This document shows, piece after piece, positions 20,031-60,997 of a DNA stretch of 64,000 nucleotides. How positions within the stretch are numbered: position 1 is the stretch's first letter; each line of letters begins with the position of its first letter. The notes under the pieces are model-generated. The model searched no databases and was not told the origin of the DNA. It was given only the letters and a program-made list of their open reading frames with translations. The position numbers and the translations under genes are program-made. The DNA comes from Octopus vulgaris (lineage: Eukaryota): contig OX597833.1 of NCBI GenBank assembly GCA_951406725.2, positions 35,402,001 to 35,466,000 of the forward strand, given 5' to 3'.

Positions 20031-21418
20031 TTGTGTGTTCTTTCCTACTGTTGGGAGTGTGCGAACTCTTCCCGGTACTGTATTGTTTTAGCTTATTTTC
20101 CTTGAGGTGTGGTGCAGTCTTGTGTCGTATTACTGCTTGTATTCTGTGTTTAGTGTGTAATGCTTTGATTTTCTGGCTTACTGGTGAGAGTTTATTTCAC
20201 TGGGTAAATACTGTATAGATTCTCTTGTATTTGTCGGTTGTTTTGTTTAGCTTGTATTATTGGATTGATAGTGTCATGCATAGGATGAGGACTGTTCCTA
20301 GCAGGGTAATCTTTTGGATAGTGTGTAGTGTTGAGGATCCAAGTGTAGCTTCTACATTTTTGTTCCTATGAATTTTTATCATACCCAATGCTCCAATTAT
20401 TATGGTATTGTTTTTACCTTTACGCCCCATATTTTGATATTTCAATTCCGAGGTCTTTGTTCTTCGACAATTTCTCCACTTCTTTTTGACGATATTTTGA
20501 TCAGAGGGGACTGCAATGTCTATCAGTAAGCTGGTGTTTTTCCCCCAATTCTTGACTATTATGTCTGGGCGATTAGCTTTTATTTCTTTGTTGGTTTGAA
20601 CTGGCATATCTTGGATGATTGTGGCCTGATAGTTGTCTTGTTTCTTGCATGGCTCATGCTTGTACCACCTACTGTCAGTTTTGATGTTGTAATGTTGGAT
20701 ATAACTGCTTACTTTGTCGCGTCTGTATACATATTCAGACTTGGCAAGGGCAATATGATGTGGTCAACGGTCCCATTGTGCTGGTTGCACATTCTGCATT
20801 TGGTGCTGAGGCCTGTTTTCATTATTTCGTTTTTATAGTTGCTTGTAGTCAGGCATTGGTTTTGTGCAGCGAGAATCAATCCTTCCTTTTCGGCTTTTAG
20901 TCCAGAGCTTTTGAGCTATTGTTGGCTTTTACTTAGGCTCACTTCCTCTCTGTCAAGCCTTGCAGGGTATTGGCCAAGTGATTTTTCTCTTCATTTCTTC
21001 TTCAGTATCTTTTATAATTCAGTTTTCATGTTTTTTGTCGTTTTGACCATTTCTGCAATGTTTGTCATCTGAAGTCAGTGTTTCAGTGTAGTTTGCTTCT
21101 GTTTTGCATTTTGTCCCCTCTGTGTATACTTTTTCGCTTGTTGCTTTACTCATGCAGTAGTCTTCCTTTCTTTGTTTCTAAGTACTCTGCTAGTCCAACT
21201 GTTATTATCTTATAGTAGTTTTCTATCTTATCAGACCACAGCCTCCTTCTGAGTGGGGTAGATATATTCTGTCTACGTCTGCTCTGGGGTGGTGACTTCG
21301 GTAGGCTGTTAGTAGTTTTCTGGGTTTTATCCATCTAGGTTTCTCAATTCCCTGATCTTCCAGTTTTTTTATGTTAAAACTGTAATTTATGACTGGTATG
21401 AATAGCGTGTTTATCCCT
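20031..21418 (-). mobile_element. 5'-truncated R4/Dong-like retrotransposon relic, copy 2
   Basis: GINTLFIPVINYSF; HHPRADVDRIYLPHSEGGCGL; LKAEKEGLILAAQNQCL; Zn-knuckle KCRMC...VDHI; RLE motif ANRPDIIV...LLIDIAVP; IIGALGMI; stop at 20257. Confidence 0.85.
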
Positions 21419-21512: not shown

Positions 21513-22320
21513 GAAAACTCACAGCTTATTTTGCTGGGTGTGATGGAAAGTGTCAGGTATCATCTTCAGATATCGAGTATCTTCCTTAGGATTCTTACAG
21601 AATATAGAATGGTACTTTTCTGCAGGTCGATAATGTGAGTTTCAATTCCGATTTCTTTCAGTCTTTTAGGTAGAATTTTGGAGGTTGTACCAAGTGTACC
21701 AGTTATTACAGGAATAATAGTTGTCTTGGTCTTCCACAGTATTATCAACTCTTCCACAGTGTTCTCTGGGTTGATCTTGATACTTCTCATTTTTTCAATT
21801 TCTTTGGCATCGACTCTACTATCAAGGAATTGCAAAATCTTACTCTGTTTGATTATTCAGTCCTCTAAAGTTATATTTCGTCCTTTTGCTTTCACAGTAT
21901 GATCAGCGTTTTGGGGGAAATCATTCAAGTTCTTATAATTTTCATTTTCTGTTAAACCTTCTGGTTCGTATCCATACCAATTTTCTATTCTTTTGAAGCC
22001 ACACTCTCGGCTAAAATCCCACTTCACTCTTTTGCCTTCACAGTCATGTCTGCGCTTATACTCGTTTTGTGCTAGTATACTGCACCCACTCAGGTGATTG
22101 ATTCTTTGGTCTCCTTTCCTACAGATTCTACATTTGCTATCTGACTGAGTTTTCTTGATCTTTGCTTTATCAGAATTGATCTAAGAACTTGTTCCTGAGC
22201 GGCTATAATTAGCGTTTCTGCTTCTCGTTTCAAGTTTCCGTCTGTCGGTCAGAGTCATTGATCTTTACTTCCTGCGTTCTCGATTTGTTGCATGAATTGT
22301 CCGTGTAGTTCCATTTGTTT
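21511..22320 (-). mobile_element. 5'-truncated R4/Dong-like retrotransposon relic, copy 3
   Basis: HGQFM; NLKREAETLIIAAQEQ; KCRICRKG...HLSGCSILAQNEYKRRHD; IIPVITGTLGT...LQKSTILYSVRILRKILDI*. Bounded by (TAA)n-type tracts. Confidence 0.85.
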
Positions 22321-44267: not shown

Positions 44268-44612
44268 CGCACATAAACACACACGCATACTCTCTCTCTC
44301 TCATACACATACGTGTGTGTGTATATTCTTTTATTCTTTTACTTGTTTCAGTCATTTTGACTGCGGTCATATATACGCATGTGTATATGTGTATTTATGC
44401 GTGTGTATAAGTGCTTGTGTATGTGCGTAGACACGCACGCACACACACATACACTCTCACACACAGACACACGCATCACATATAAAGTGTATGAATGTTG
44501 TTTGGATGATATGTGCCAAACATCTTAAACCATCAATGTTGCACCAAAATCATATTAGCAAGAGAATAAAATGAGCTATCTCCGGTAGTGTAAGAATACT
44601 AAATTTAAAAGA

Positions 44613-44678
<66 letters not shown>

Positions 44679-44681
<3 letters not shown>

Positions 44682-45000
44682 CTCTCAAAATACAAAGACC
44701 TGGAAATAGAGGTAACTAGAATGTGGAATCTGAAAACAGAAACAATTCCTATCATAGTAGGTGCATTAGGCATGATAAAAAAATATTCAGACAAATACAT
44801 AACAAAAACACCAGGACTTACAAACACATATAACATACAGAAAATTGCACTACTAGGCTCTGCACACATCCTACGCAGAACACTTTCCATACAATAACCA
44901 TCAGAGCATCACAACAAATCACAGCACATACCCAAGGCACACAGAGCTGCGCTCGGTAGTGAAGTGAAAGCACGCTATAAAAATAAAAATAAAACTACTG
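44679..45000 (+). mobile_element. 5'-truncated R4/Dong-like retrotransposon inserted in (AAT)n
   Basis: Uninterrupted KLSKYKDLEIEVTRMWNLKTETIPIIVGALGMIKKYSDKYITKTPGLTNTYNIQKIALLGSAHILRRTLSIQ* (stop 44895-44897), then about 100 bp of 3' UTR, with (AAT)n on both sides. Confidence 0.9.
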
Positions 45001-47013: not shown

Positions 47014-47430
47014 GGGCGGCGAGCTGTCAGAATCGTTAGCACGCCAGGCTGAATGCTCAGCAGTATTTCGTCTGCCGCTGCGTTCTGTGTTCAAATTCCG
47101 CTGAGGTCGACTTTGCCTTTCGTCCTTTCGAGGTCGATTAAATAAATACCAGTTACGCACTGGGGTCGATATATTCGACTTAATCCGTTTGTCTGTCCTT
47201 GTTTGTCCCCTCCGTGTTTAGCCCCTTGCGGGTAGTAAAGAAAAAGGTATTGCGTCTGCCGTTGCATTCTGAGTTCAAGTTCTGCCGAGGTCGACTTAGC
47301 CTTTCATCCTATCGGGGTCGATTAAGTAAGTACCAGTTAAGCACTGGGGCCGATGCAATCGTCTTAATCCGTTTGTCTGTCCTTGTTTGTCCCCTCTGTG
47401 TTTAGCATCTTGTGGGCAATAAAGAAATAA
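47014..47430 (+). mobile_element. SINE family A partial dimer (tail A)
   Basis: A full copy is followed by a second copy that starts at ggtattgcgtctgcc (about 47246); tttataaaattta-like direct repeats flank the unit. Confidence 0.85.
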
Positions 47431-49719: not shown

Positions 49720-50311
49720 TCAAATTTTGGTACAAGGTAAGCAATTTCAGTGGGAGGGTCAAGTCGATAACATCGACCCCAGTGTTCAACTGATACTTAT
49801 TTTATCGACCCCGAAACGATGAAAGGCAAAGTCTACCTCGGCGGAATTTGAATTCAGAACGTAAAGACGGGTGAGATATCGCTAACCTTTTTGTCCCACG
49901 TGCTAACGATCCTGCTCGCTCGCCGCTTTGAAAACTATTTCATAAGACCCCTGATAACATAGACATTCATTCATTCAACTAGATGGTGGGAAAACAGCGA
50001 AATTTACTTTAAAAAATATTCCTCAAAGTGAATGACATCAATTGCTGCTTACTACCTTCCAAATATTTGAACTTGTTCATATAATCACCATTATTCTTTT
50101 CTAGTCTACGCACAAGGTCCGGAATTTTTTTTTGGGGGGGTGCAGTCGATTAGATCGACCCCCAGTACGCAACTGGTACTTAATTTATCGAACCCGAAAG
50201 GATGAGACGCAAAGTCTACCTCGGCGGAATTTGAACTCAGAACGTTAAGACAGACGAAATAGCGCTAAGCATTTCGCCCGGCGTGCTAACGATTCTGCCA
50301 GCTCGCTGCCT
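49720..50311 (-). mobile_element. Two minus-strand SINE family A copies; the second (50096-50311) has a 16-bp TSD
   Basis: TSD tataatcaccattatt at 50080-50095 and 50312-50327. Confidence 0.85.
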
Positions 50312-50564
50312 TATAATCACCATTATTGCTGCTGTGAAGTAGCAGAGAAGGTAGATAAAGCACCATACAAAATTCAATTATTTTAAGTTCGTCATCGTTG
50401 ATGTCTAAGTTCGCATTCTACCAAGGTCAAAACTCATGCATTCAAAGTTGTTCAAATAAAACTTCTGTTTGGTCTTCTGTCAATCTAATTGACCATATTT
50501 CGCCCACCACCACCACCACCAAAAAATAATGTACCGCCTTGTATCAATGTAAAGAAAATCTTAT

Positions 50565-51020
50565 AATAGTGGTGGTTCGGCGAAATCATTAGAGTATAAG
50601 ACAAAATACCTAGCGGTATTTCTTTCGAATAAGGCGGCGAGCTGGCAGAAACGTTAGCACGTCGGACGAATTGCGTAACCGTATTTCCTCTGATGTTACG
50701 TTGTGAGTTCAAATTCCGCCGAGGTCGACTTTTCCTTTCATGCTTTCGGGGTCGATTAATTAAGTACCAGTTACGCACTGGGGTCGATGTAATCGACTTA
50801 ATACCTATGTCTGTCCTTGTTTGTCCCCTCTGTGTTTAGCCCCTTATGGGTAATAAAGAAATAGGTATTTCTTTCGATTTATGCTCCGAGTTCAAATTTT
50901 TGTCAGGGCCAACTTTGTCATTCTTCCTGCGTCCCTAAAATATAGAACCAGTCAAGTAATCGTTGGTATTGAGTTATGCTTCCCACCCATTCAAATTTCA
51001 GACACTGTGCTTTCATAAAA

Positions 51021-51083
<63 letters not shown>

Positions 51084-51508
51084 GGTGGCGAGCTGGCAGA
51101 ATCGTTAGCTCGTTAGACGAAAGGCTCGAATTCAAATTCCGCCAAGATCGATTTTGCCTTTCATCCTTTCAGGGTCCATAAATTAAGTACTAGTTAAGCA
51201 CTGGGGTCGATGTAATCGACTAGTCACCACTTCACAAATTTCAGGCCTTGTGCCTATACTAGTAAGAATTCTTCTTCTTCTTCTTCTTCTTCTTCTTCTT
51301 CTTCTTCTTCTTCTTCTTCTTCTTCTTCTTCTTCTTCTTCTTCTTCTTCTTCTTCTTCTTCTTCTTCTTCTTCTTCTTCTTCTTCTTCTTCTTCTTCTTC
51401 TTCTTCTTCTTCTTCTTCTTCTTCTTCTTCTTCTTCTTCTTCTTCTTCTTCTTCTTCTTCTTCTTCTTCTTCTTCTTCTTCTTCTTCTTCTTCTTCTTCT
51501 TCTTCTTC

Positions 51509-51573
<65 letters not shown>

Positions 51574-52660
51574 GTTATTATTATTGCGGCAAGCTGGTAG
51601 AATTGTTAGCACGCCTGGCGAAATGCTTAGCGGTATTTCGTCTGCGGCTACGTTCTGATTTCAATTCCGCCGAAGTTGACTTTGCTTTTCATCCTATCGG
51701 AGCCGATTAATTAAGTACCAGTCCAATACTGGGGCCTATGTAATCGTATATCCTCCTCCTCACAAATTCCAGGCCTTGTGCCTATAGTAGAATGGATTAT
51801 TGTTATTATTATTATTAAGGCAACGAGTTGGCAGAATTATTAACGCGCCGGACAAAATGCTTAGCGACATTTCCTCTGTCTTTATGTTCTGAGTTCAAGG
51901 TCCGCCGAGGTCCACTCTGCCTTTCATCCTTTCGGGGTCAATAAAATAAGTACCAGTTGAGCACATGTCTCGATATAATCCATTCGACTCCTCTCCCGAC
52001 CTTGCTGCTCTTGTGCCAACATTCTTGTTGTTGTTGTTGTTGTTGTTGTTGTAGTTGTTGTTGTTCTTCTTTTTCTTCTTCTTCTTCTCCGCCTTCACCT
52101 CTTTCTCCTCCTCCTCCTCCTCCTCCCCCTCCTTCTATCATCCTCCCCCTCCTCCCCTCCCTCCCTCCTCCTCCTTCCCCTTCTTCTTCTTCTTCTTCTT
52201 CTTCTTCTTCTTCTTCTTCTTCTTCTTCTTGCTGTTGTTGCTGTTATTATTATTATTAAGACTTCGAGCTGGCAGAACTGTTAGAACGACGGGCGAAATA
52301 CCGCTAAGCAAATTCCGCCGGAGCCGACTTTGCCTTTAATCCTTTTGCGGTTAATGAAATAAGTACTAGTGAAACACTGAGGTTTATACGATCGACTAGT
52401 CCTCTCACCCAAAATCCACGCCTTGTGCGTATTGTAGAAATGATTATCATTTTTATTATTATGGCGGCGAGCTGGCAGAATCGTTAACACTCCTGGCGGA
52501 ATGCTTAGTCTCTCGCTACGTCCTGTGTTCAAATTCCGCCGAGGTCAACTTTGCCTTTCATCCTTTCGGAGTCGATAAATTAAGTACCAGTAAAAGCCCT
52601 AGGGTCGATGTAATCAACTGGTCCCATTAAAATTTCAGGTCTGTGCCTAAAGTAGAAAGG

Positions 52661-52665
<5 letters not shown>
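50565..52665 (+). mobile_element. Head-to-tail array of about seven SINE family A copies separated by (TTA)n/(TTC)n tracts
   Basis: Heads at about 50568, 50633, 51084, 51586, 51819, 52265 and 52463, each with gttcaaattccgccgag and gcctttcatcctttcgg-like motifs. Confidence 0.85.
51269..51509. repeat. Pure (TTC)n/(GAA)n tract of about 240 bp
   Basis: Directly visible; source of the poly-L and poly-K pseudo-ORFs. Confidence 0.95.
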
Positions 52666-52726
<61 letters not shown>

Positions 52727-53167
52727 TATTAGTTTTATTATTACTATTATTATTAAACTTCAAGTTAATGGTGATGGCTAGTAGGTTTCGTTTTCTTGTA
52801 AGAGCCATTTTCTTCTTCCGTACCCCGATTATGCTCTTGGGGAAGGGATAACTTCTCGTATCTCCAACCATAAAATCAGGTATGTATTTATGTATAGAGG
52901 AAACGATTTTTATTCTAAGGACAAGAGTGTGGGTGAAGATAGAGAAACGAGATAATGACAATAATGGCTAAGTAATTATTTTTCCTTTTCGTAGCCAAAT
53001 TTTACTATATTTGTGCAGTTATTTTTTCCAGTTAATAGAAAATATAATGACATAACCTGCTCTACTTAACAGCACAAAAAACAACATGGAGCTCTTGAGC
53101 GTAGGGATTCGACAGTAATAAAAACCTGTCAAAACTTACAGCAAAAAGAGACTGACATCCTCCACGT

Positions 53168-53225
<58 letters not shown>

Positions 53226-53770
53226 GACTCCCCCTCTGTCTGTCGCTGTCACTGTTTCTCTCTTCATCTCTTTTCAATGTTTCTTTTCTTCATATGACTT
53301 TTTAGTTGAAGTTGAAAGACTTTACTAGTTTTATATATTTATATAGGAAATAATTTAAGTGTCAGTTATTTCGCTGAATAAATAGTATTGCATAATTTCA
53401 GATGCTATTATTTTGACCTGATGCAGACACAGGCACATATATGTATGTATGTATGTTTGTATGTATGTATGTTTGTATGTATGTATGTATGTATGTATGT
53501 ATGTATGAATGTATGTATGTTTGTATGTATGTATGTATGTATGTATGTATGTATGTATGTTTGTATGTATGTTTGTATGTATGTATGTATGTATGTATGT
53601 ATGTATGTATGTATGTATGTATGTTTGTATGTATATATGTATGTATCTTTGTATGTATGTATGTATGTATGTATGTATGTTTGTATGTATGTTTGTATGT
53701 ATACATACATGCAAGCATGCACGTATGCATGTATTATGTATGTGTATGTATTATATATGTATGTATTATG

Positions 53771-53801
<31 letters not shown>

Positions 53802-55429
53802 ATTGTTTATACTTTGAAATTTTAAAAATATACTAGGATTAGATACCCTATTAGTTTTCAGTATTATGTGTGTATATATACACGTGTGTGTGTGTGTATG
53901 CACGCATGATATACATGTACACTAACGCCCCCGCAACGCACATGTATACGTTACATATACATATGCACACACACTCTCGCACATTCACGCACTTACACAG
54001 TCACACATGCACACAAGCACACTTGGTGTTCATCATTTCACCAAGCTCGTCGCTAAGCATGGAGTGGAACTCGGGCATGCTAAATCTTACACCATCATCT
54101 TGTCACTCGTTGCCTTCAGCAGAGTCCACTCTATTGTAAGCATCTGAAACCAGGTCTTCTCTCTGAGAACAACCCAATATCTTGCTGCATTGCTTCGCGT
54201 AAAGACTACCTGTCTTTCCCTCTAACTTTCTCGAAGGTCCCGTGAAGTGTGTACTGCTCTTTCTTCTCTAACGATGATATAAAAATAAGTGTGTTAACGA
54301 AGCAGTCATCAATGTTAAGTGATGCTGCTTTTATGCTACTGCTGATTATAAAAGGGAGCTGCTTATATGACATATACTGTCTGTTTACAGCCACAAATAA
54401 AATGAGGCATTGAGATTTAAGTGTCCTGTGCTTCACTTCCCAGTGTACCGGTAATCTATAATAACATCGACCGGCTGTCTGTTATTCCGAGTTATTGATC
54501 GCTTTGGAAACATAGATACCTTCTAGTATTATTAATATCAAGTGCGTGTGTGTTCATGTGAATTGTATGTAAATGGTGAATTGTATGTAAATGGTGTGCA
54601 GGTGTGTACGATGTACGAAAGCGAGTGAGAAAAAAAGCGAATGCGGATGCGGATGAGATGAAGGGAGAAAAGAAGAAGTAAATAACACGCTTTAGAAGTC
54701 GAGAATGGCGATTTCAATTCAAACTTAGAAAATCAATAACTAAAACGTAGAGATAAATAAACAGATAGTATGTCAGATGTCTAGCGTCGATTTTAATACC
54801 GCGGCTATCTTTTCTTGTATCGGTGTATCTTGTGAAATATTGTGTTATATTTATCGTTTGTTGTGATAGTAGCTTATATCAATTACCTACGTCTGCATAA
54901 ATCCTCATATTTAAAAGTAGAACTGTGGTCAACTACATTTGAATAACGTATATTAAGTTATTTATTGTTCTCTTCAGGAACGATATAGTTGTATTCTTAA
55001 TCAAAGAACTTTACCCACTGAAAAGCATTTGATCAAGCGTTCTACTGTTATTTCCAGATTTTCTTTTATATTTAACACTTCATCGACACTTAATATAAAA
55101 TTACTAATATTTTATAAATATTTGTTCTAAGAAAATGCCGCATAGACATTTCGTAATTTGCAAAATATATCTTTTTAAAGATTTCTCAAAATTCTTCCTC
55201 GTGCATCTGTGAAAATATAATGCATCAATATCACTGATACATACATACATATATACATACATACATACATACATACATACATACAAACACACATACATAC
55301 ATTCATACATGCATACATACATACATACATACACACATACACACATACATATACACATACATACATACATGCATACATACATACACACATACTTACATGC
55401 ATACATTCATACATACATACATACATACA

Positions 55430-55460
<31 letters not shown>

Positions 55461-56232
55461 CAATGATGCCAATTAAAGCATTGACTTATACAATTATTAA
55501 TCAATTAATCTAGGGCGCTATACCAAGCAGTATGAAGAGAAAAATCATTTATAGAAATGTAAACTCCCATACGATAATGAAAAATTAAGATACAACAGTA
55601 TGTTTGTTTTTTCCTCTGTGTGTAAGTACGTGTTTCAGTTCCAACTATGTTAATGACATTGCTAAATGAACCCATATATTTATGAAAGATTCAAATATAT
55701 TTCTCCTGTTCAATTGAAGCAAATTGGTGGGAAATCTCGTAAATTAACTAAATTAGTCACCTGAAAGACTAACATGGCATATTTATTGATATACTTCAGT
55801 TCTTGACATAATCAGCAAATATCACAGAGGAAAATGCTCAATTCCAAAAGTAGTGGTGATATAAGGCAAGAACTCTGGTGCCCGGTTGAGTCTTCGATTA
55901 GCTTCGTATTATACGAACAGAATATTTGCATTTCATCATGTTCCGGACAATAAGTACCAAGTACCAGTAATACACTGTTAATGTAATCGACTATGCTTCT
56001 CCTACAAGATGTGTTTCCTTCATCCAACGTGAAATACCATTATCATTAATACGTGATTATATTGAATTCAAATCGTGTCAGAATCTATGTGACCTTCTAG
56101 AGCGTATATGTCTGATATGCATCAGTTATTTTAATACCATCTTCGGACATTGGTGCAAATAAAATGACTACGCCAATTCCCCATTGTTTTTCAAGATCAA
56201 TATAAGTGTGTGTGTGTGTCTGCGCGTGCATG

Positions 56233-56305
<73 letters not shown>

Positions 56306-56306
56306 T

Positions 56307-56492
56307 ATATGTAGAAAAATACAAATTGGGACAAGAACGTAAAACATTTAGAAGACGATACAAAAAACACGGACGGGACATTCCAAGCCTTCAATCTTCA
56401 GTCAAGAACCGGATCATCCTCGCAATTTCGGCTGAATAATCTTGAGATCGCTCCGATCCGGCCAGCCCCAAGGAAAAACTAATCTACGAGCT
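56307..56492. repeat. Short unclassified insertion between TA-rich tracts with an internal hairpin
   Basis: GC-richer block embedded in microsatellite; ccggatc...gatccgg inverted pair at about 56409-56461. Confidence 0.4.
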
Positions 56493-56580
56493 ATGTATAT
56501 ACATATATATATACATATATGTGTGCGTATGTATGGTATATATATGTTTATGTTTCTGTATGTATATATGTGTATATGTA

Positions 56581-56632
<52 letters not shown>

Positions 56633-56954
56633 GGTCCCGGTTGATTCAGGGTTAACCACAGTAAATAAGGTACTCAATACATAGATAACATATGTGTATA
56701 GGTATAAGTGAGAATTTCCTTATTTACCTAAAACTCTATTCTTCTATATATTTTTATATTTTTTTATTCTTTTTTTATTCTTTTTTTTATTTTTTTATTC
56801 TTTTATTTATTCTTCTATCTAATTTACCACTGACTCCTTGACCACTCCCCCAAGTATGTTTTTTTTTGCGCTATGCCTACCCTCAAAAAGTCCCCCACCA
56901 CCACCCCTATAAACCTGCCTAAATGTATAAATGCCAATACAATTCTTGTTAACT

Positions 56955-57005
56955 AGCTTCCTGAAGATTTCTCTTGAATGAAACAGTTCTAGTCCTGTAG
57001 AAGCT
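56955..57005 (+). ncRNA. Type I hammerhead ribozyme (predicted)
   Basis: Stem I AGCUUC/GAAGCU; core CUGAAGA; stem II U-UUC UCUU GAA-U; GAAA; stem III ACAG/CUGU; cleavage triplet GUA (after 56999). Confidence 0.7.
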
Positions 57006-57016
57006 CCTTCTATATA

Positions 57017-57063
<47 letters not shown>

Positions 57064-57798
57064 CGTGTGTGTGTGTGTGTGTGTATACAGATGGATAGAT
57101 GGATAGATAGATAGTCCAGACATTGTCCTCGTGAAGCACACGTAAAGTAATCAAATATATGTCAATGCTTCATAGTAAATGAGAAAATGTAAAGAGGCAA
57201 AATTTAGGAGATCTTATACATGGACTCTCTCACTCGCTCGCTCTGTTTTCCCCTTTCTCACACACACACCGACATAAATAATATTAATTTATCACATTTC
57301 AAACGTTATTATCATTGTTATTAGGACTTATATTTATATTCATTACGTATTTCCTATAAGGTAATGAGACCCCTATAACATGGGATAAAAATATGGCAAA
57401 TCTTCCATATTTATAAATATATATGTGTGAGTGTGTGGGGAGGTGATTATTTATGTAAATATGCCTTTATCTGTAAGAATGAAATGATTATGCTTATAAC
57501 ACGTAAACACATGTTACTTGTTACTCAGATTTGTAGATTATGAGATTGTGCAAAAATTTTCAAGAGAGATGGCCTATATTGAATTGAATCTTAAAGACTG
57601 TTACAGATAATTATTTGAACGGTAATATATTATATGTATGCATGCATGTATCTATACACACACTTATATACACACATGTGCGACTTAATATGTGCGTGTT
57701 TGTGTGTGCATATATTTGTATGTATAGATGTATGTGAATGTATTGATACATATATGTATATAAATACTTACATATATATATATACAGATATATATACA

Positions 57799-57847
<49 letters not shown>

Positions 57848-57908
57848 ATGTGTGTGTGTGTGTGTGTGTGTATGTTATATTTGTACGTATAAATGTTTGC
57901 GTTTATGT

Positions 57909-57962
<54 letters not shown>

Positions 57963-58038
57963 GTAAATATATATATATATATATATACACACACATATCT
58001 CTTTCCCTACAGACATAGATATACGTTATAAATATATA

Positions 58039-58079
<41 letters not shown>

Positions 58080-58104
58080 GTACATACATACATACGTATA
58101 CATT

Positions 58105-58154
<50 letters not shown>

Positions 58155-59560
58155 GCACATATACATGACTTTGTGATAACTGAGAAACTATATCATTGAC
58201 TAAGGTTTCATTCCATTACACTTGTAAAGCTGGAGTAGTTTATATAAGAACATTTTGCATAAACCCAATCCTGGTGTAAGAGCTTTTGATTACTTCGGGT
58301 TTCGCAATCGGTTTGACATTACTTCGTAACCACATATCAGTACGATCATTTGGAGAGTAAATATCTTACACATTCCCAACATGACTTGTTCTCAGAATAT
58401 GTTTTACGCCTTTACATTTTTGCAGTTAGATGCATTTGTTTACGTGTCATTAATGAGTTTATTTCCCGCTCACGCTCTGATTATGATTCTTCGATTTCTT
58501 GAATTCTTGGATTCTAAATCCTTCAGATCATTTGTGTAACGGAAGCTACTATATAGGGCTAATAAATACGTAATTAAAACATCCAAACATTAATTTGCAT
58601 ATTGATTTCATCACAAATATTGTTGATAGCATTGACGTCATTGATACGTTGTGTTGTCTTTGATTTTTCTGTTAATAAACATATCTGGTAAGATTTGCTG
58701 TTCGTATAAATGAGGTGATGTCAGAGAGAGATATTTCAAACTGGAACGACTTAATATATTCCCTCGAGATACACTAATCAGAATTATTGTATATCTTGAA
58801 AGAATATTGTTGGTTGTAACAGCTTAATTACCTTCCTCAAGATCAAGCTCCCAGTATGCTGAGATTAAAAATTTGATGAGATAGTTTCGTAACCAACTCG
58901 ACGAATGCCTATCTGAAGTAGAGACAAAGCACATTTACGTGTGACTGGTTGAGCGGCGACTTAATTCGCTATTGCAATTCGGTAGTCGAAAATCGAGCTG
59001 AATATCACCTGGGAAGTAGTTTTTCACTTTAGAACATGAAGTTACTTCCGATTATTCAGTCAACACTATGTTGATATTTAAAGTCGGCGAGATAGGCTTG
59101 TAACATTTTAGCATCTGCTCTACGTTTTCCCTCGTAAAAAGAATATATACCTTCTTTCAGATTTTTTGGGGATTACAAAGATTTCATTTGCATTTTCTTA
59201 AGAAAAATCTCGGGAAGAACTCAGGCTTAATCTATGGTTAATATTATAACTTAATCGTTGCTTATTTATGGTTGTTACTTCCCTATGAAGTGTTGTTTTA
59301 AAATAACTCATCAAACTTAATTATTTCAAAATACCCCAGCAGGGTAGTGGGAACATGAGCTCTACATTCAGTATTTCATGTATTCTTTGGTAGTGTGTAA
59401 CCAATGAGATATTTGCTGCAAATAGACGGCTATACTTTGTTAGTAACTAAAGCTGAGTCTTTTGAAATTTATAGAAAACTTAAGAGTTCGCTTTTATACC
59501 TTCTACAGGTAAAAACATTAAAAAGGTAAAATAATATGTGTTAAGTAGGCAAACTGGTGT

Positions 59561-60430
59561 GCTAGTGCTGGAAAGAAGTGTCACGTGGCATGAGAGACTG
59601 CAATATTGCAACCTTGCACAAGAACAAAGGAGATAGAAGCCATTGTAACAACTACAGAAGATTATTCTTGTTGAGTGTCGTTGAGATGGTCCGAAACAGA
59701 TTATAGAGAATCCCTGAAAGGATATACCCCCCCCCCAATCGTCTCAGTGGTGTTTCAGGTCAAAATGCTTCACAATTGAAATAGTCTTCTTACATTGACA
59801 ATTACAAGATAAGTGCAGAGAGCAAAGACAACCATTCTACATAGCTTTCATTAACCTCTTAAATCTACTGAGTTGAGATGGTCTTTTCAGAACTTTTCTC
59901 AAGATTGGGCGTTCCGAGGTTAGTCATAATTGTTTAGTCATTCTACACAAACATTAACTGTGTCATTCTCAGAAATATGCTGGTATTTGCAATGAAGTGT
60001 AACAAAGCTCTGTGCTCGTTTTCGCCGGAAAAGAGTAGTCTCAACACGAACTATGCTGACATTGCGAGTCTGGGAGAACATAAAGCTAACTGCGTACACA
60101 AATATTGAAGTTTACTCAGCTTGCGTCCGCAACACACAAAGTTATAAGAGTGGAGCTTGGAACAGCTACTCCAGACTAGAGCAGAGTCTCAATACTTACC
60201 ACCTACGTATCTCGAAAATGATTCTGAAAACTTCAAGAGGACTACTGAATAACGAAAAAAGAGTTCCTGGTTCTTGCAGAAGTACTAAGTTTTCTCATTC
60301 CTCTCCCTAGTGCAACAACGATGCCTCTGCTGGTTAAATCATTTACATTGTTTGTAAGATGGAAAAGTCCTGAAAGTCTATTGCATATCGAACTGGCTTC
60401 TGGCAGGGGAACATATGAGTGAAACTGGTT
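59561..60430 (+). mobile_element. RTE-clade LINE relic (RT and C-terminal region, heavily decayed)
   Basis: MRDCNIATLHKNKGDRSHCNNYR; ERIYP..SQWCFR; QLQDKCREQRQPFYIAFINL; LTLRVWENIKLTAYTNIEVYSACV; QRCLCWLNH...DGK..ELASG. All align by eye to typical RTE ORF motifs. Confidence 0.85.
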
Positions 60431-60461
60431 TTATAAGGAGTTAGATGACTATATATATATA

Positions 60462-60991
60462 TTTGTGTATCAAATAGCTAACTTAAGGCGATGGCCTCAT
60501 GGAGCTAATAAGCGGACAGCTTTATTCTTATTTTTATAAGAATGCCATATTAGTATGGCGATAACTATTATTTTCCGGGAACGCTGCCGTTGTTCTCTTT
60601 TAGAGAGACTTAGTAATTTTAATATTTCTATTATTGAAAACAAGTGGATGTATTCCACCGAAGCTAGGTAAATAAAACCTTCGAACAGAGATTGTCAGAA
60701 GCGACACCTACTGGTCTGGCTACGCTGCATTGAAAAGGGGCAATACCCCGAAACGCGTCTGTAGCTGCCGGTCAAGTAGTGTGGAGCGACTGACCTCCCT
60801 TGTTCGAAGGTTATATGGATACAGTTTGTGTATCAAATAGCTAACTTAAGGCGATGGCCTCATGGAGCTAATAAGCGGACAGCTTTATTCTTATTTTTAT
60901 AAGAATGCCATATTAGTATGGCGATAACTATTATTTTCCGGGAACGCTGCCGTTGTTCTCTTTTAGAGAGACTTAGTAATTTTAATATTTC

Positions 60992-60997
<6 letters not shown>
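60462..60997 (+). mobile_element. Retrozyme-like / Penelope pLTR-like partial tandem (363-bp period, 173-bp identical direct repeats) in (TA)n
   Basis: 60462-60634 is identical to 60825-60997; the 190-bp spacer contains a hammerhead; TA repeats on both sides. Confidence 0.75.
60724..60765 (+). ncRNA. Minimal type I hammerhead ribozyme with U3-A8 core variant (predicted)
   Basis: GCUGCA-UUGAAAA-GGGG CAAUA CCCC-GAAA-CGCG-UC-UGUAGC: 6-bp stem I, 4-bp stem II, palindromic minimal stem III ACGCGU, GUC cleavage site after 60759. Confidence 0.8.

What the first reader, a model, noticed from the sequence alone, without database searches (positions are those of the whole stretch)
56630..57012. Second, sequence-unrelated type I hammerhead in another (TA)n-bounded insertion
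Seen: AGCUUC CUGAAGA U UUC-UCUU-GAA U GAAA CAG UUCUAGUC CUG U A GAAGCU at 56955-57005. All catalytic core nucleotides are canonical, with a 6-bp stem I, a 4-bp stem III with a semi-palindromic loop (CUAG) and a GUA cleavage site. Stem II is weak (3 bp under a U.U mismatch). It ends a ~380-bp block bounded by TA tracts, 3.7 kb from the first hammerhead and with no flanking similarity to it. Inference: an independent Penelope-like or retrozyme family using the same microsatellite target.
Basis: partly seen in the sequence, partly recalled or inferred. Interest (0 to 1): 0.75.

Follow-up and report, generated by a model that had tools for sequence, protein, structure and literature searches.

The report
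Two-armed Penelope insertion with hammerhead ribozyme
This is one copy of a very highly repeated animal DNA element, likely the end of a Penelope-like jumping gene, that carries a hammerhead motif predicted (not shown) to cut its own RNA and has the family's last 55 bases flipped onto its front, which is a known and ordinary kind of insertion.

Summary
The type I hammerhead at 56955-57005 is exactly as described; a matching descriptor hit 2 times in 1000 shuffles. No Rfam model scores it. It is not single-copy: thousands of contigs from four organisms align to the block. The four variable ribozyme positions listed are N7 and loop positions.

New here: the block has two arms. 56688-57022 is the direct arm. 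56630-56684 is the family's own 3' tail, inverted; other copies run from 57022 through 13 bases into it. Some copies are joined head-to-head at the ribozyme's 5' edge. A one-sided tail, an inverted arm, a terminal hammerhead and (TA)n flanks are the published insertion anatomy of Penelope-like elements.

No RT or endonuclease gene was found, so membership rests on architecture. Self-cleavage is untested: in context an inactive fold is 4.4 kcal/mol more stable. A tandem retrozyme is not supported at this locus. Verdict: a new member of a known kind, of modest interest.

The parts
56492..56629 (.). Left (TA)n-rich microsatellite, the inferred insertion target; any target-site duplication is hidden in it
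   Evidence: TRF; sequence
56630..56684 (-). Inverted arm: outer 55 nt of the family's 3' tail; in other copies the tail follows 57022 after 13 further bases and ends against (AT)n
   Evidence: table 7: loose end behind 57022 in 34 X4 contigs and 1 X7 contig ends in the reverse complement of 56668-56684 (checked). table 7: loose ends behind 56682-56684 run into the reverse complement of 57007-57022
56685..56687 (.). Three-base junction (ATA) between the arms; remnant of an upstream TA tract or untemplated
   Evidence: Sequence; other copies have (TG)n(TA)n before 56688 (4 X2 and 5 X9 contigs)
56688..57022 (+). Direct arm: 335-nt non-coding end of the element (pLTR/3'-UTR-like), without tail, running into (TA)n
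   Evidence: Covered by contigs in all four runs except the masked part; every frame has stops within the block; the ORFs overlapping it have no Pfam hit
56737..56814 (+). T-rich low-complexity tract inside the direct arm
   Evidence: TRF; 56740-56811 masked by read laying, so not examined in other copies
56955..57005 (+). Type I hammerhead motif: 6-bp stem I, canonical core, U10.1.U11.1 above a 3-bp stem II, 4-bp stem III with a partly palindromic loop, GUA site
   Evidence: listed variants among copies only at 56965 (N7), 56972 and 56973 (loop II) and 56988 (loop III)
56999..57000 (+). Predicted self-cleavage site (between A56999 and G57000)
   Evidence: Hammerhead NUH rule; not tested; only 2 X4 contigs have a loose end here
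56996..57014 (+). Competing 8-bp hairpin that would sequester the cleavage site and the 3' strand of stem I
   Evidence: Minimum-energy fold of 56940-57015 and 56940-57022
57023..57060 (.). Right (TA)n microsatellite
   Evidence: TRF 57011-57060

Best explanation
The block is one copy of a very abundant repeat family, built of a 335-nt direct arm ending in a type I hammerhead motif and the family's own 3' tail inverted in front of it, and it was likely made by the reverse transcriptase-endonuclease of a Penelope-like element (PLE) inserting into a (TA)n tract. Shown: the two-arm anatomy, the high copy number in four organisms, tailed and tail-less right ends, head-to-head junctions in some copies, and (TA)n flanks. 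Inferred: the endonuclease nicked both strands of the (TA)n target and each 3' end primed reverse transcription, one at the outer end of the tail (55 nt copied, the left arm) and one about 68 nt further upstream, just after the ribozyme (335 nt copied, the right arm); the two cDNAs were then joined, losing the 13 bases between them. Inferred: the template was uncleaved or re-ligated RNA, because the copy spans the cut site intact. Predicted: the hammerhead would cut after A56999 slowly on its own, and would need help from the element's protein or from pairing of two copies through stem III, because an inactive fold is favoured in context. Open: whether the master copy encodes its own enzymes or is a short non-autonomous unit.
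For: Copy number: 10,267, 1,143, 1,919 and 261 contigs laid in runs X1, X2, X3 and X9 (organisms A-D, 3 studies), spread over 90-100% identity; 1,469 in X4. Tail link read from both sides (behind 57022, behind 56682-84, checked). X4 pieces 14 and 16 run on into TA as the window copy does, so tail-less ends exist too. All 13 joints listed table 5 join the inverted tail (56665-84) to a shorter direct arm starting at 56954-56993. Loose ends before 56955-56959 (X1 25 contigs, X2 5, X4 12, X11 1) give consensus letters that read wholly or in their last letters as the reverse complement of the ribozyme's 5' half, a head-to-head junction at a short palindrome. Summed depth rises from the 5' part to the ribozyme (about 2.5- to 15-fold across the four runs), as 5' truncation would give. 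Literature: inverted 5'-truncated copy, 30-40-bp one-sided tail and (TA)n bias (PMC8557442, passages); head-to-head inverted pLTRs with junction palindromes (PMC3846280, passages); two RT start sites that bound the tail, AT-rich cleavage, both strands extended, and a hammerhead that needs the protein and is dispensable for insertion in vitro (PMC11167929, passages and second part of main text); hammerheads in pLTRs (PMC4209133, parts 1-2 of 4). All 4 listed variable positions fall among the 13 unconstrained positions of 51 (hypergeometric about 0.003, by hand, on incomplete tables). The 56988 T>A variant widens the loop III palindrome from 4 to 6 nt. A stem III duplex of two copies scores -12.8 against -1.4 kcal/mol per hairpin. 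U10.1-U11.1 has natural precedent (PMC3088659, passage).
Against: No RT or GIY-YIG sequence was found: no genome is held, the block has no usable ORF, and exact pattern scans of viral, metagenome (twice) and prokaryote collections found 0 matches. Where the letters upstream of 56688 were listed, they are microsatellite, not an element body. The tail is about 68 nt, longer than the published 30-40 nt, and its reading holds no ORF start. The ribozyme is unlike the usual minimal metazoan PLE hammerhead: no G10.1-C11.1 pair, short stem II, and a full 4-bp stem III. No compensatory base change was seen. With flanks the hammerhead fold is 3.7-4.4 kcal/mol above the minimum, and the best predicted dimer of 56940-57022 is also an inactive fold. 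The variant tables are incomplete: one search lists nothing 3' of 56973, and one search does not list 56972 or 56973. The joint table is cut (two joints in table 5c are absent from table 5). The head-to-head consensus has low agreement (0.53-0.68). Summed depth is no copy number. Transcription is not shown: X7 and X11 (42 and 104 contigs laid) are only guessed to be RNA, and X20, the one on-record RNA run laid, gave 0.
Confidence: 0.8

Rival explanations
1. A dispersed monomer of a non-LTR retrozyme: a ~400-nt non-coding unit that exists as head-to-tail arrays elsewhere and spreads through self-cleaved circular RNA.
For: The unit from 56688 to the tail end is about 400 nt, inside the 150-450-nt range (PMC7229834, part 2 of 6 and passages). 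It is low in G+C and non-coding, with a near-canonical type I hammerhead, and is microsatellite-bounded at 56688 in other copies. Monomer fractions of retrozyme families range from 0 to 1, and the families derive from pLTRs (bioRxiv 10.64898/2026.07.22.740005, part 1 and passages).
Against: This locus is a monomer, with no second copy in the window. The tail end meets (AT)n rather than the next unit in 46, 10 and 21 contigs. The inverted arm and one-sided tail are PLE insertion features. Arrays spaced by TA tracts would be invisible to these short contigs, so they are not excluded.
Confidence: 0.12
2. A SINE-like element mobilised by a LINE, inverted by L1-type twin priming (mechanism recalled), in which the hammerhead is a passenger.
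For: A short 3' arm plus an inverted upstream arm with a 13-nt gap is what twin priming gives. The window holds ORF fragments that look like LINE ends to me (20257-20763, 44589-44897; recalled resemblance, no convincing Pfam hit).
Against: A fixed second start point at 57022 (34 X4 contigs leave there), head-to-head copies with overlapping arms, and a hammerhead just inside the end all fit PLEs. No poly(A) or simple-repeat tail of its own was seen, and no tRNA-like head was looked for.
Confidence: 0.05
3. The hammerhead look is accidental, or a dead relic in an ordinary repeat.
For: No Rfam hit; folding z-score near 0; no covariation; an inactive fold is favoured in context.
Against: 2 hits in 1000 shuffles; listed variants only at unconstrained positions; the motif sits where PLE hammerheads sit, just inside the end.
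Confidence: 0.03

Closest known systems
Insertion units of endonuclease-bearing Penelope-like elements (Penelope/Poseidon, Neptune, Nematis, Hydra): pLTR with hammerhead, adjoining inverted 5'-truncated copy, one-sided tail (PMC8557442, PMC3846280, PMC11167929)
   Same: Hammerhead just inside the end, tailed and tail-less ends, inverted arm, head-to-head junctions at short palindromes, AT-rich or (TA)n targets, 3'-biased coverage.
   Different: No ORF linked, so no clade can be assigned. Tail about 68 nt rather than 30-40. In this copy the inverted arm is tail only and shares no sequence with the direct arm, so no inverted repeat is visible in the window.
Metazoan PLE hammerheads (Cervera and De la Pena 2014, PMC4209133)
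   Same: Type I topology, canonical core, palindromic element in loop III, no evident loop I/II contact, likely low activity alone.
   Different: The published minimal type has a long stem II (6-8 bp), a G10.1-C11.1 pair, an extra base after A9 and little or no stem III. Here stem II is 3 bp under U.U and stem III is 4 bp with an 8-nt loop, closer to the fungal and protist variants that paper describes.
Non-LTR retrozymes of animals (PMC7229834; bioRxiv 10.64898/2026.07.22.740005)
   Same: Non-coding, A+T-rich, a few hundred nt, type I hammerhead, PLE-related.
   Different: Defined by head-to-tail arrays and circular RNA; this locus is a two-armed monomer, and neither arrays nor circles were seen.

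Membership tests
Type I hammerhead ribozyme | Core CUGANGA, GAA, A15.1-U16.1 and an NUH cleavage triplet | tested here: met
   CUGAAGA, GAAA, GUA
Type I hammerhead ribozyme | Three helices around the core, with stem I open | tested here: met
   6, 3 and 4 Watson-Crick pairs
Type I hammerhead ribozyme | Usual G10.1-C11.1 pair | tested here: not met
   U56968.U56979; no variant listed at either position. Not strictly required: natural U10.1-U11.1 is reported as the best-tolerated mismatch (PMC3088659)
Type I hammerhead ribozyme | Score against the Rfam hammerhead models | tested here: not met
   The neighbouring minimal hammerhead at 60730 was also not hit at gathering score
Type I hammerhead ribozyme | Hammerhead fold favoured, or supported by covariation | tested here: inconclusive
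   1.2 kcal/mol above the minimum alone, 3.7-4.4 with flanks; variants spare the stems but none is compensatory, and the tables are incomplete
Type I hammerhead ribozyme | Site-specific self-cleavage | not testable with these tools
   All runs are contigs; no raw RNA reads were offered
Penelope-like element (endonuclease-bearing) | ORF with telomerase-like RT and GIY-YIG endonuclease | not testable with these tools
   Absent from this stub; no genome held; contigs too short to follow upstream
Penelope-like element (endonuclease-bearing) | Hammerhead within the terminal repeat region | tested here: met
   Motif ends 17 nt inside the tail-less end at 57022
Penelope-like element (endonuclease-bearing) | Optional tail present at one end only | tested here: met
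   about 68 nt, longer than published
Penelope-like element (endonuclease-bearing) | Adjoining inverted, 5'-truncated copy (head-to-head) | tested here: met
   This locus, 13 listed joints, and loose ends at 56955-59
Penelope-like element (endonuclease-bearing) | Partial tandem forming direct pLTRs | tested here: inconclusive
   None at this locus; one X1 contig goes back from 57016 to 56955 (table 5c)
Penelope-like element (endonuclease-bearing) | Target-site duplication | not testable with these tools
   Hidden in (TA)n; no empty allele available
Non-LTR retrozyme | Head-to-tail arrays of 150-450-nt units, each with a hammerhead | tested here: not met
   At this locus; family-wide only weakly tested (loose ends)
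Non-LTR retrozyme | Abundant linear and circular monomer RNA | not testable with these tools
   No raw RNA reads; X20 gave 0 contigs

The most novel reading that the evidence does not exclude
The family is not the stub of a full-length element but a dedicated non-autonomous ~400-nt Penelope-derived mini-element that hops between (TA)n tracts at very high copy number in this animal lineage. It keeps under selection an unusual hammerhead (U10.1.U11.1, 4-bp stem III, switched off by a downstream hairpin), and the folded ribozyme, or a splice site at its 5' edge, sets where the two cDNA arms join. Thousands of copies would then be a natural record of reverse-transcriptase start and stop points, and a way to test what PLE hammerheads do in vivo.
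Probability: 0.25. Interest if true: 0.55.

Novelty: new member of a known kind. Interest (0 to 1): 0.3.

Why it matters
Hammerheads in Penelope-like elements and their two-armed, tailed insertions are well described, so this locus changes no picture. Its value is as material. What PLE hammerheads do in the cell is still open (dispensable for insertion in vitro, PMC11167929). A family this abundant, with arm junctions apparently gathered at the ribozyme's 5' half and not at its cut site, could test whether uncleaved RNA is the normal template. The ribozyme variant (U.U at 10.1-11.1 with a full stem III) would be a small addition to the catalogue. I found no paper on this family, but it cannot be searched by sequence. 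'Hammerhead ribozyme' with 'octopus' (my recalled, untested guess at the host group) gave 5 papers, 4 listed, and judged by title and abstract start none is on such a family. The 2026 octopus repeat annotation has 0 mentions of hammerhead or ribozyme in its main text. Repbase-type libraries and supplements were not seen and may hold it.

Tried and rejected
Rfam scans: no hammerhead hit (the 108 weak matches are microsatellite artefacts). Own genome: not held, so no paralogue alignment, covariance model or copy count could be made. The repeat finder on the window was swamped by microsatellites; blastn found no second copy of the block in the window. Exact pattern scans: 0 matches in metagenome (2 scans), viral and prokaryote collections. 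Coding: the ATG inside stem II (56978) meets a stop after four codons, unlike the anole Poseidon, whose ORF starts there; 7 of 191 stop-to-stop ORFs were given to Pfam and none reached a cut-off. Pile-up of copy ends at the cleavage site: not seen (2 X4 contigs at 57000 against 12 at 56955; 25 further rows not shown; only 23 family bases lie 3' of the site in this copy, so the test is weak). A stable structure in the tail, like the stem-loop at the anole RT start: not found (z +1.17). I laid 8 of the 24 runs listed. Lunse et al. 2017 on dimeric PLE hammerheads is not held and is known here only through a review passage (PMC6765202). Earlier scan findings: none by sequence or by place.

Full report
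Observation. One search confirms six Watson-Crick pairs in stem I, three in stem II under a U56968.U56979 mismatch, and four in stem III, with a canonical CUGAAGA/GAAA core and a GUA triplet ending at 56999. A strict type I descriptor finds only this site in the window and 2 sites in 1000 block-wise dinucleotide shuffles; the thresholds were fitted to the motif, so this is supportive but not decisive. Rfam scores nothing at gathering level in the window and lists no hammerhead family down to E=10 in 50000-60000. Folding energies are unremarkable.

It is a very abundant family. No genome is held, so I used public runs. Of 24 runs listed, 15 from four organisms hold 0.29-0.68 of the block's sampled words. 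Laying X1, X2, X3 and X9 on 56631-57022 gave 10,267, 1,143, 1,919 and 261 contigs, spread from 99+% to under 90% identity; X4 gave 1,469 on 56925-57034. One of these runs may be the window's own source, but four organisms and several studies agree. Summed depth rises towards the ribozyme (X1 about 0.83 million at 56701-56728 against 3.3 million at 56981-56994; X2 about 0.06 against 0.83 million), as 5' truncation would give, though the tool warns that this is no copy number.

The block has two arms. In 34 X4 contigs and one X7 contig the sequence leaves the window at 57022, adds 13 bases, and continues as the reverse complement of 56668-56684 (checked). From the other side, contigs leaving at 56682-56684 run into the reverse complement of 57007-57022 in all four runs. 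So 56630-56684 is the outer 55 nt of the family's roughly 68-nt 3' tail, placed backwards at the front, and 56688-57022 is the direct arm without its tail. Tail-less ends also occur in other copies (X4 pieces reaching 57034). The tail's outer end meets (AT)n in 46, 10 and 21 contigs of X1, X2 and X3. All 13 joints listed link the inverted tail to a shorter direct arm starting at 56954-56993; the table is cut, so the clustering is a lead only. Loose ends before 56955-56959 (25, 5, 12 and 1 contigs in X1, X2, X4 and X11) read wholly or in their last letters as the ribozyme's own 5' half inverted, that is, head-to-head copies joined at a short palindrome; agreement is 0.53-0.68, so only some of those contigs have this form. 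Upstream of 56688 the listed letters are (TG)n(TA)n (4 X2 and 5 X9 contigs), so either the unit begins there or it contains a microsatellite.

The ribozyme across copies. The listed variants within 56955-57005 are 56965 A>T (N7; 9-22% of depth in seven runs), 56972 T>A (5-14%) and 56973 C>T (14-34%) in loop II, and 56988 T>A (8-9% in X4 and X11; one X7 contig has T>G) in loop III. All four positions lie among the 13 unconstrained ones of 51 (about 0.003 by a hand hypergeometric count), and the last widens the loop III palindrome from four to six bases. The two tables do not list the same rows, so neither is complete, and no compensatory change was seen. No variant is listed at the U.U positions. 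A natural U10.1-U11.1 mismatch is reported as the best tolerated one (PMC3088659, passage). Alone, the hammerhead fold is 1.2 kcal/mol above the minimum; with flanks it is 3.7-4.4 above, because 56996-57014 forms a hairpin over the cut site. Two stem III strands pair far better with each other (-12.8) than as hairpins (-1.4 each), but the best predicted dimer of the flanked RNA is still an inactive fold. Cleavage is therefore plausible but unshown, and probably needs help.

Mechanism. Published PLE insertions have an adjoining inverted 5'-truncated copy, a 30-40-bp tail at one end and a bias for (TA)n (PMC8557442, passages), with head-to-head junction palindromes (PMC3846280, passages). The purified anole Poseidon protein cuts AT-rich DNA, extends both strands and starts at two nearby RNA sites that bound the tail; its hammerhead cleaves only with the protein and is not needed for insertion (PMC11167929, passages and second part of the main text). 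Applied here by inference: both strands of a (TA)n target were nicked; one primed at the tail's outer end and copied 55 nt, the other primed just 3' of the ribozyme and copied 335 nt; the cDNAs were joined at 56685-56687, and the 13 bases between the two copied stretches were lost. The copy spans the cut site, so its template was uncleaved or re-ligated. Only 2 X4 contigs have a loose end at 57000, a weak test.

Membership. It works like a PLE end and meets the architectural tests, but the defining RT and GIY-YIG gene could not be tested: the block is non-coding and collection scans found nothing. The clade is unknown. The ribozyme differs from the usual minimal metazoan PLE type, which has a long stem II, a G10.1-C11.1 pair and almost no stem III (PMC4209133, parts 1-2 of 4). 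Retrozymes are defined by head-to-tail arrays of 150-450 bp and circular RNA (PMC7229834, part 2 of 6 and passages; bioRxiv 10.64898/2026.07.22.740005, part 1 and passages). Arrays are absent at this locus, though TA-spaced arrays elsewhere would escape short contigs. Transcription is not shown. That the host is an octopod is my recollection from the repeat landscape, not a test.

Verdict. Earlier unchecked notes of this scan describe the same anatomy in other genomes; they are leads, not support. This is a new member of a known kind, interest 0.3. The bolder reading, a dedicated non-autonomous mini-element whose ribozyme fold sets the arm junctions, is not excluded (0.25). Supplements of the cited papers were not opened and may list related families.

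Noticed in passing
window 60450-60997: Separate element in partial tandem (60450-60634 repeats 60812-60997 at 97.8%) ending in (TA)n, with a minimal hammerhead at 60724-60765 that has the U3-A8 core variant, a 4-bp G-C stem II and a palindromic CGCG in place of stem III: a textbook PLE-type motif.
   Followed up: partly
window 56311-56480: A second non-repetitive block between TA tracts, directly left of the finding; its minus strand has a CUGAAGA with a possible partner strand but no complete hammerhead by my descriptors and no notable fold (z +0.99). Possibly another element end.
   Followed up: partly
window 56937-56956: A subfamily seen in X1, X9 and X11 has a branch-point-like CTAAT and a YAG just before stem I, and the window copy has TAG at 56954-56956. 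In Drosophila virilis Penelope the intron ends at the 5' edge of helix I (PMC4209133). No spliced read was seen.
   Followed up: no
window 56954-56993: All 13 listed arm junctions and the head-to-head loose ends fall in the 5' half of the ribozyme, not at the cut site; the tables are cut, so the excess is unmeasured.
   Followed up: partly
window 47063-47427; similar pieces near 51650 and 52520-52650: 184-nt unit in two tandem copies, with look-alike pieces beside (ATT)n tracts; resembles a tRNA-derived SINE (recalled).
   Followed up: no
window 20257-20763, 21566-22180, 44589-44897: Broken reading frames that resemble C-terminal ends of non-LTR retrotransposon proteins beside (ATT)n tracts (recalled resemblance; three of them were scanned and reached no Pfam cut-off).
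   Followed up: partly
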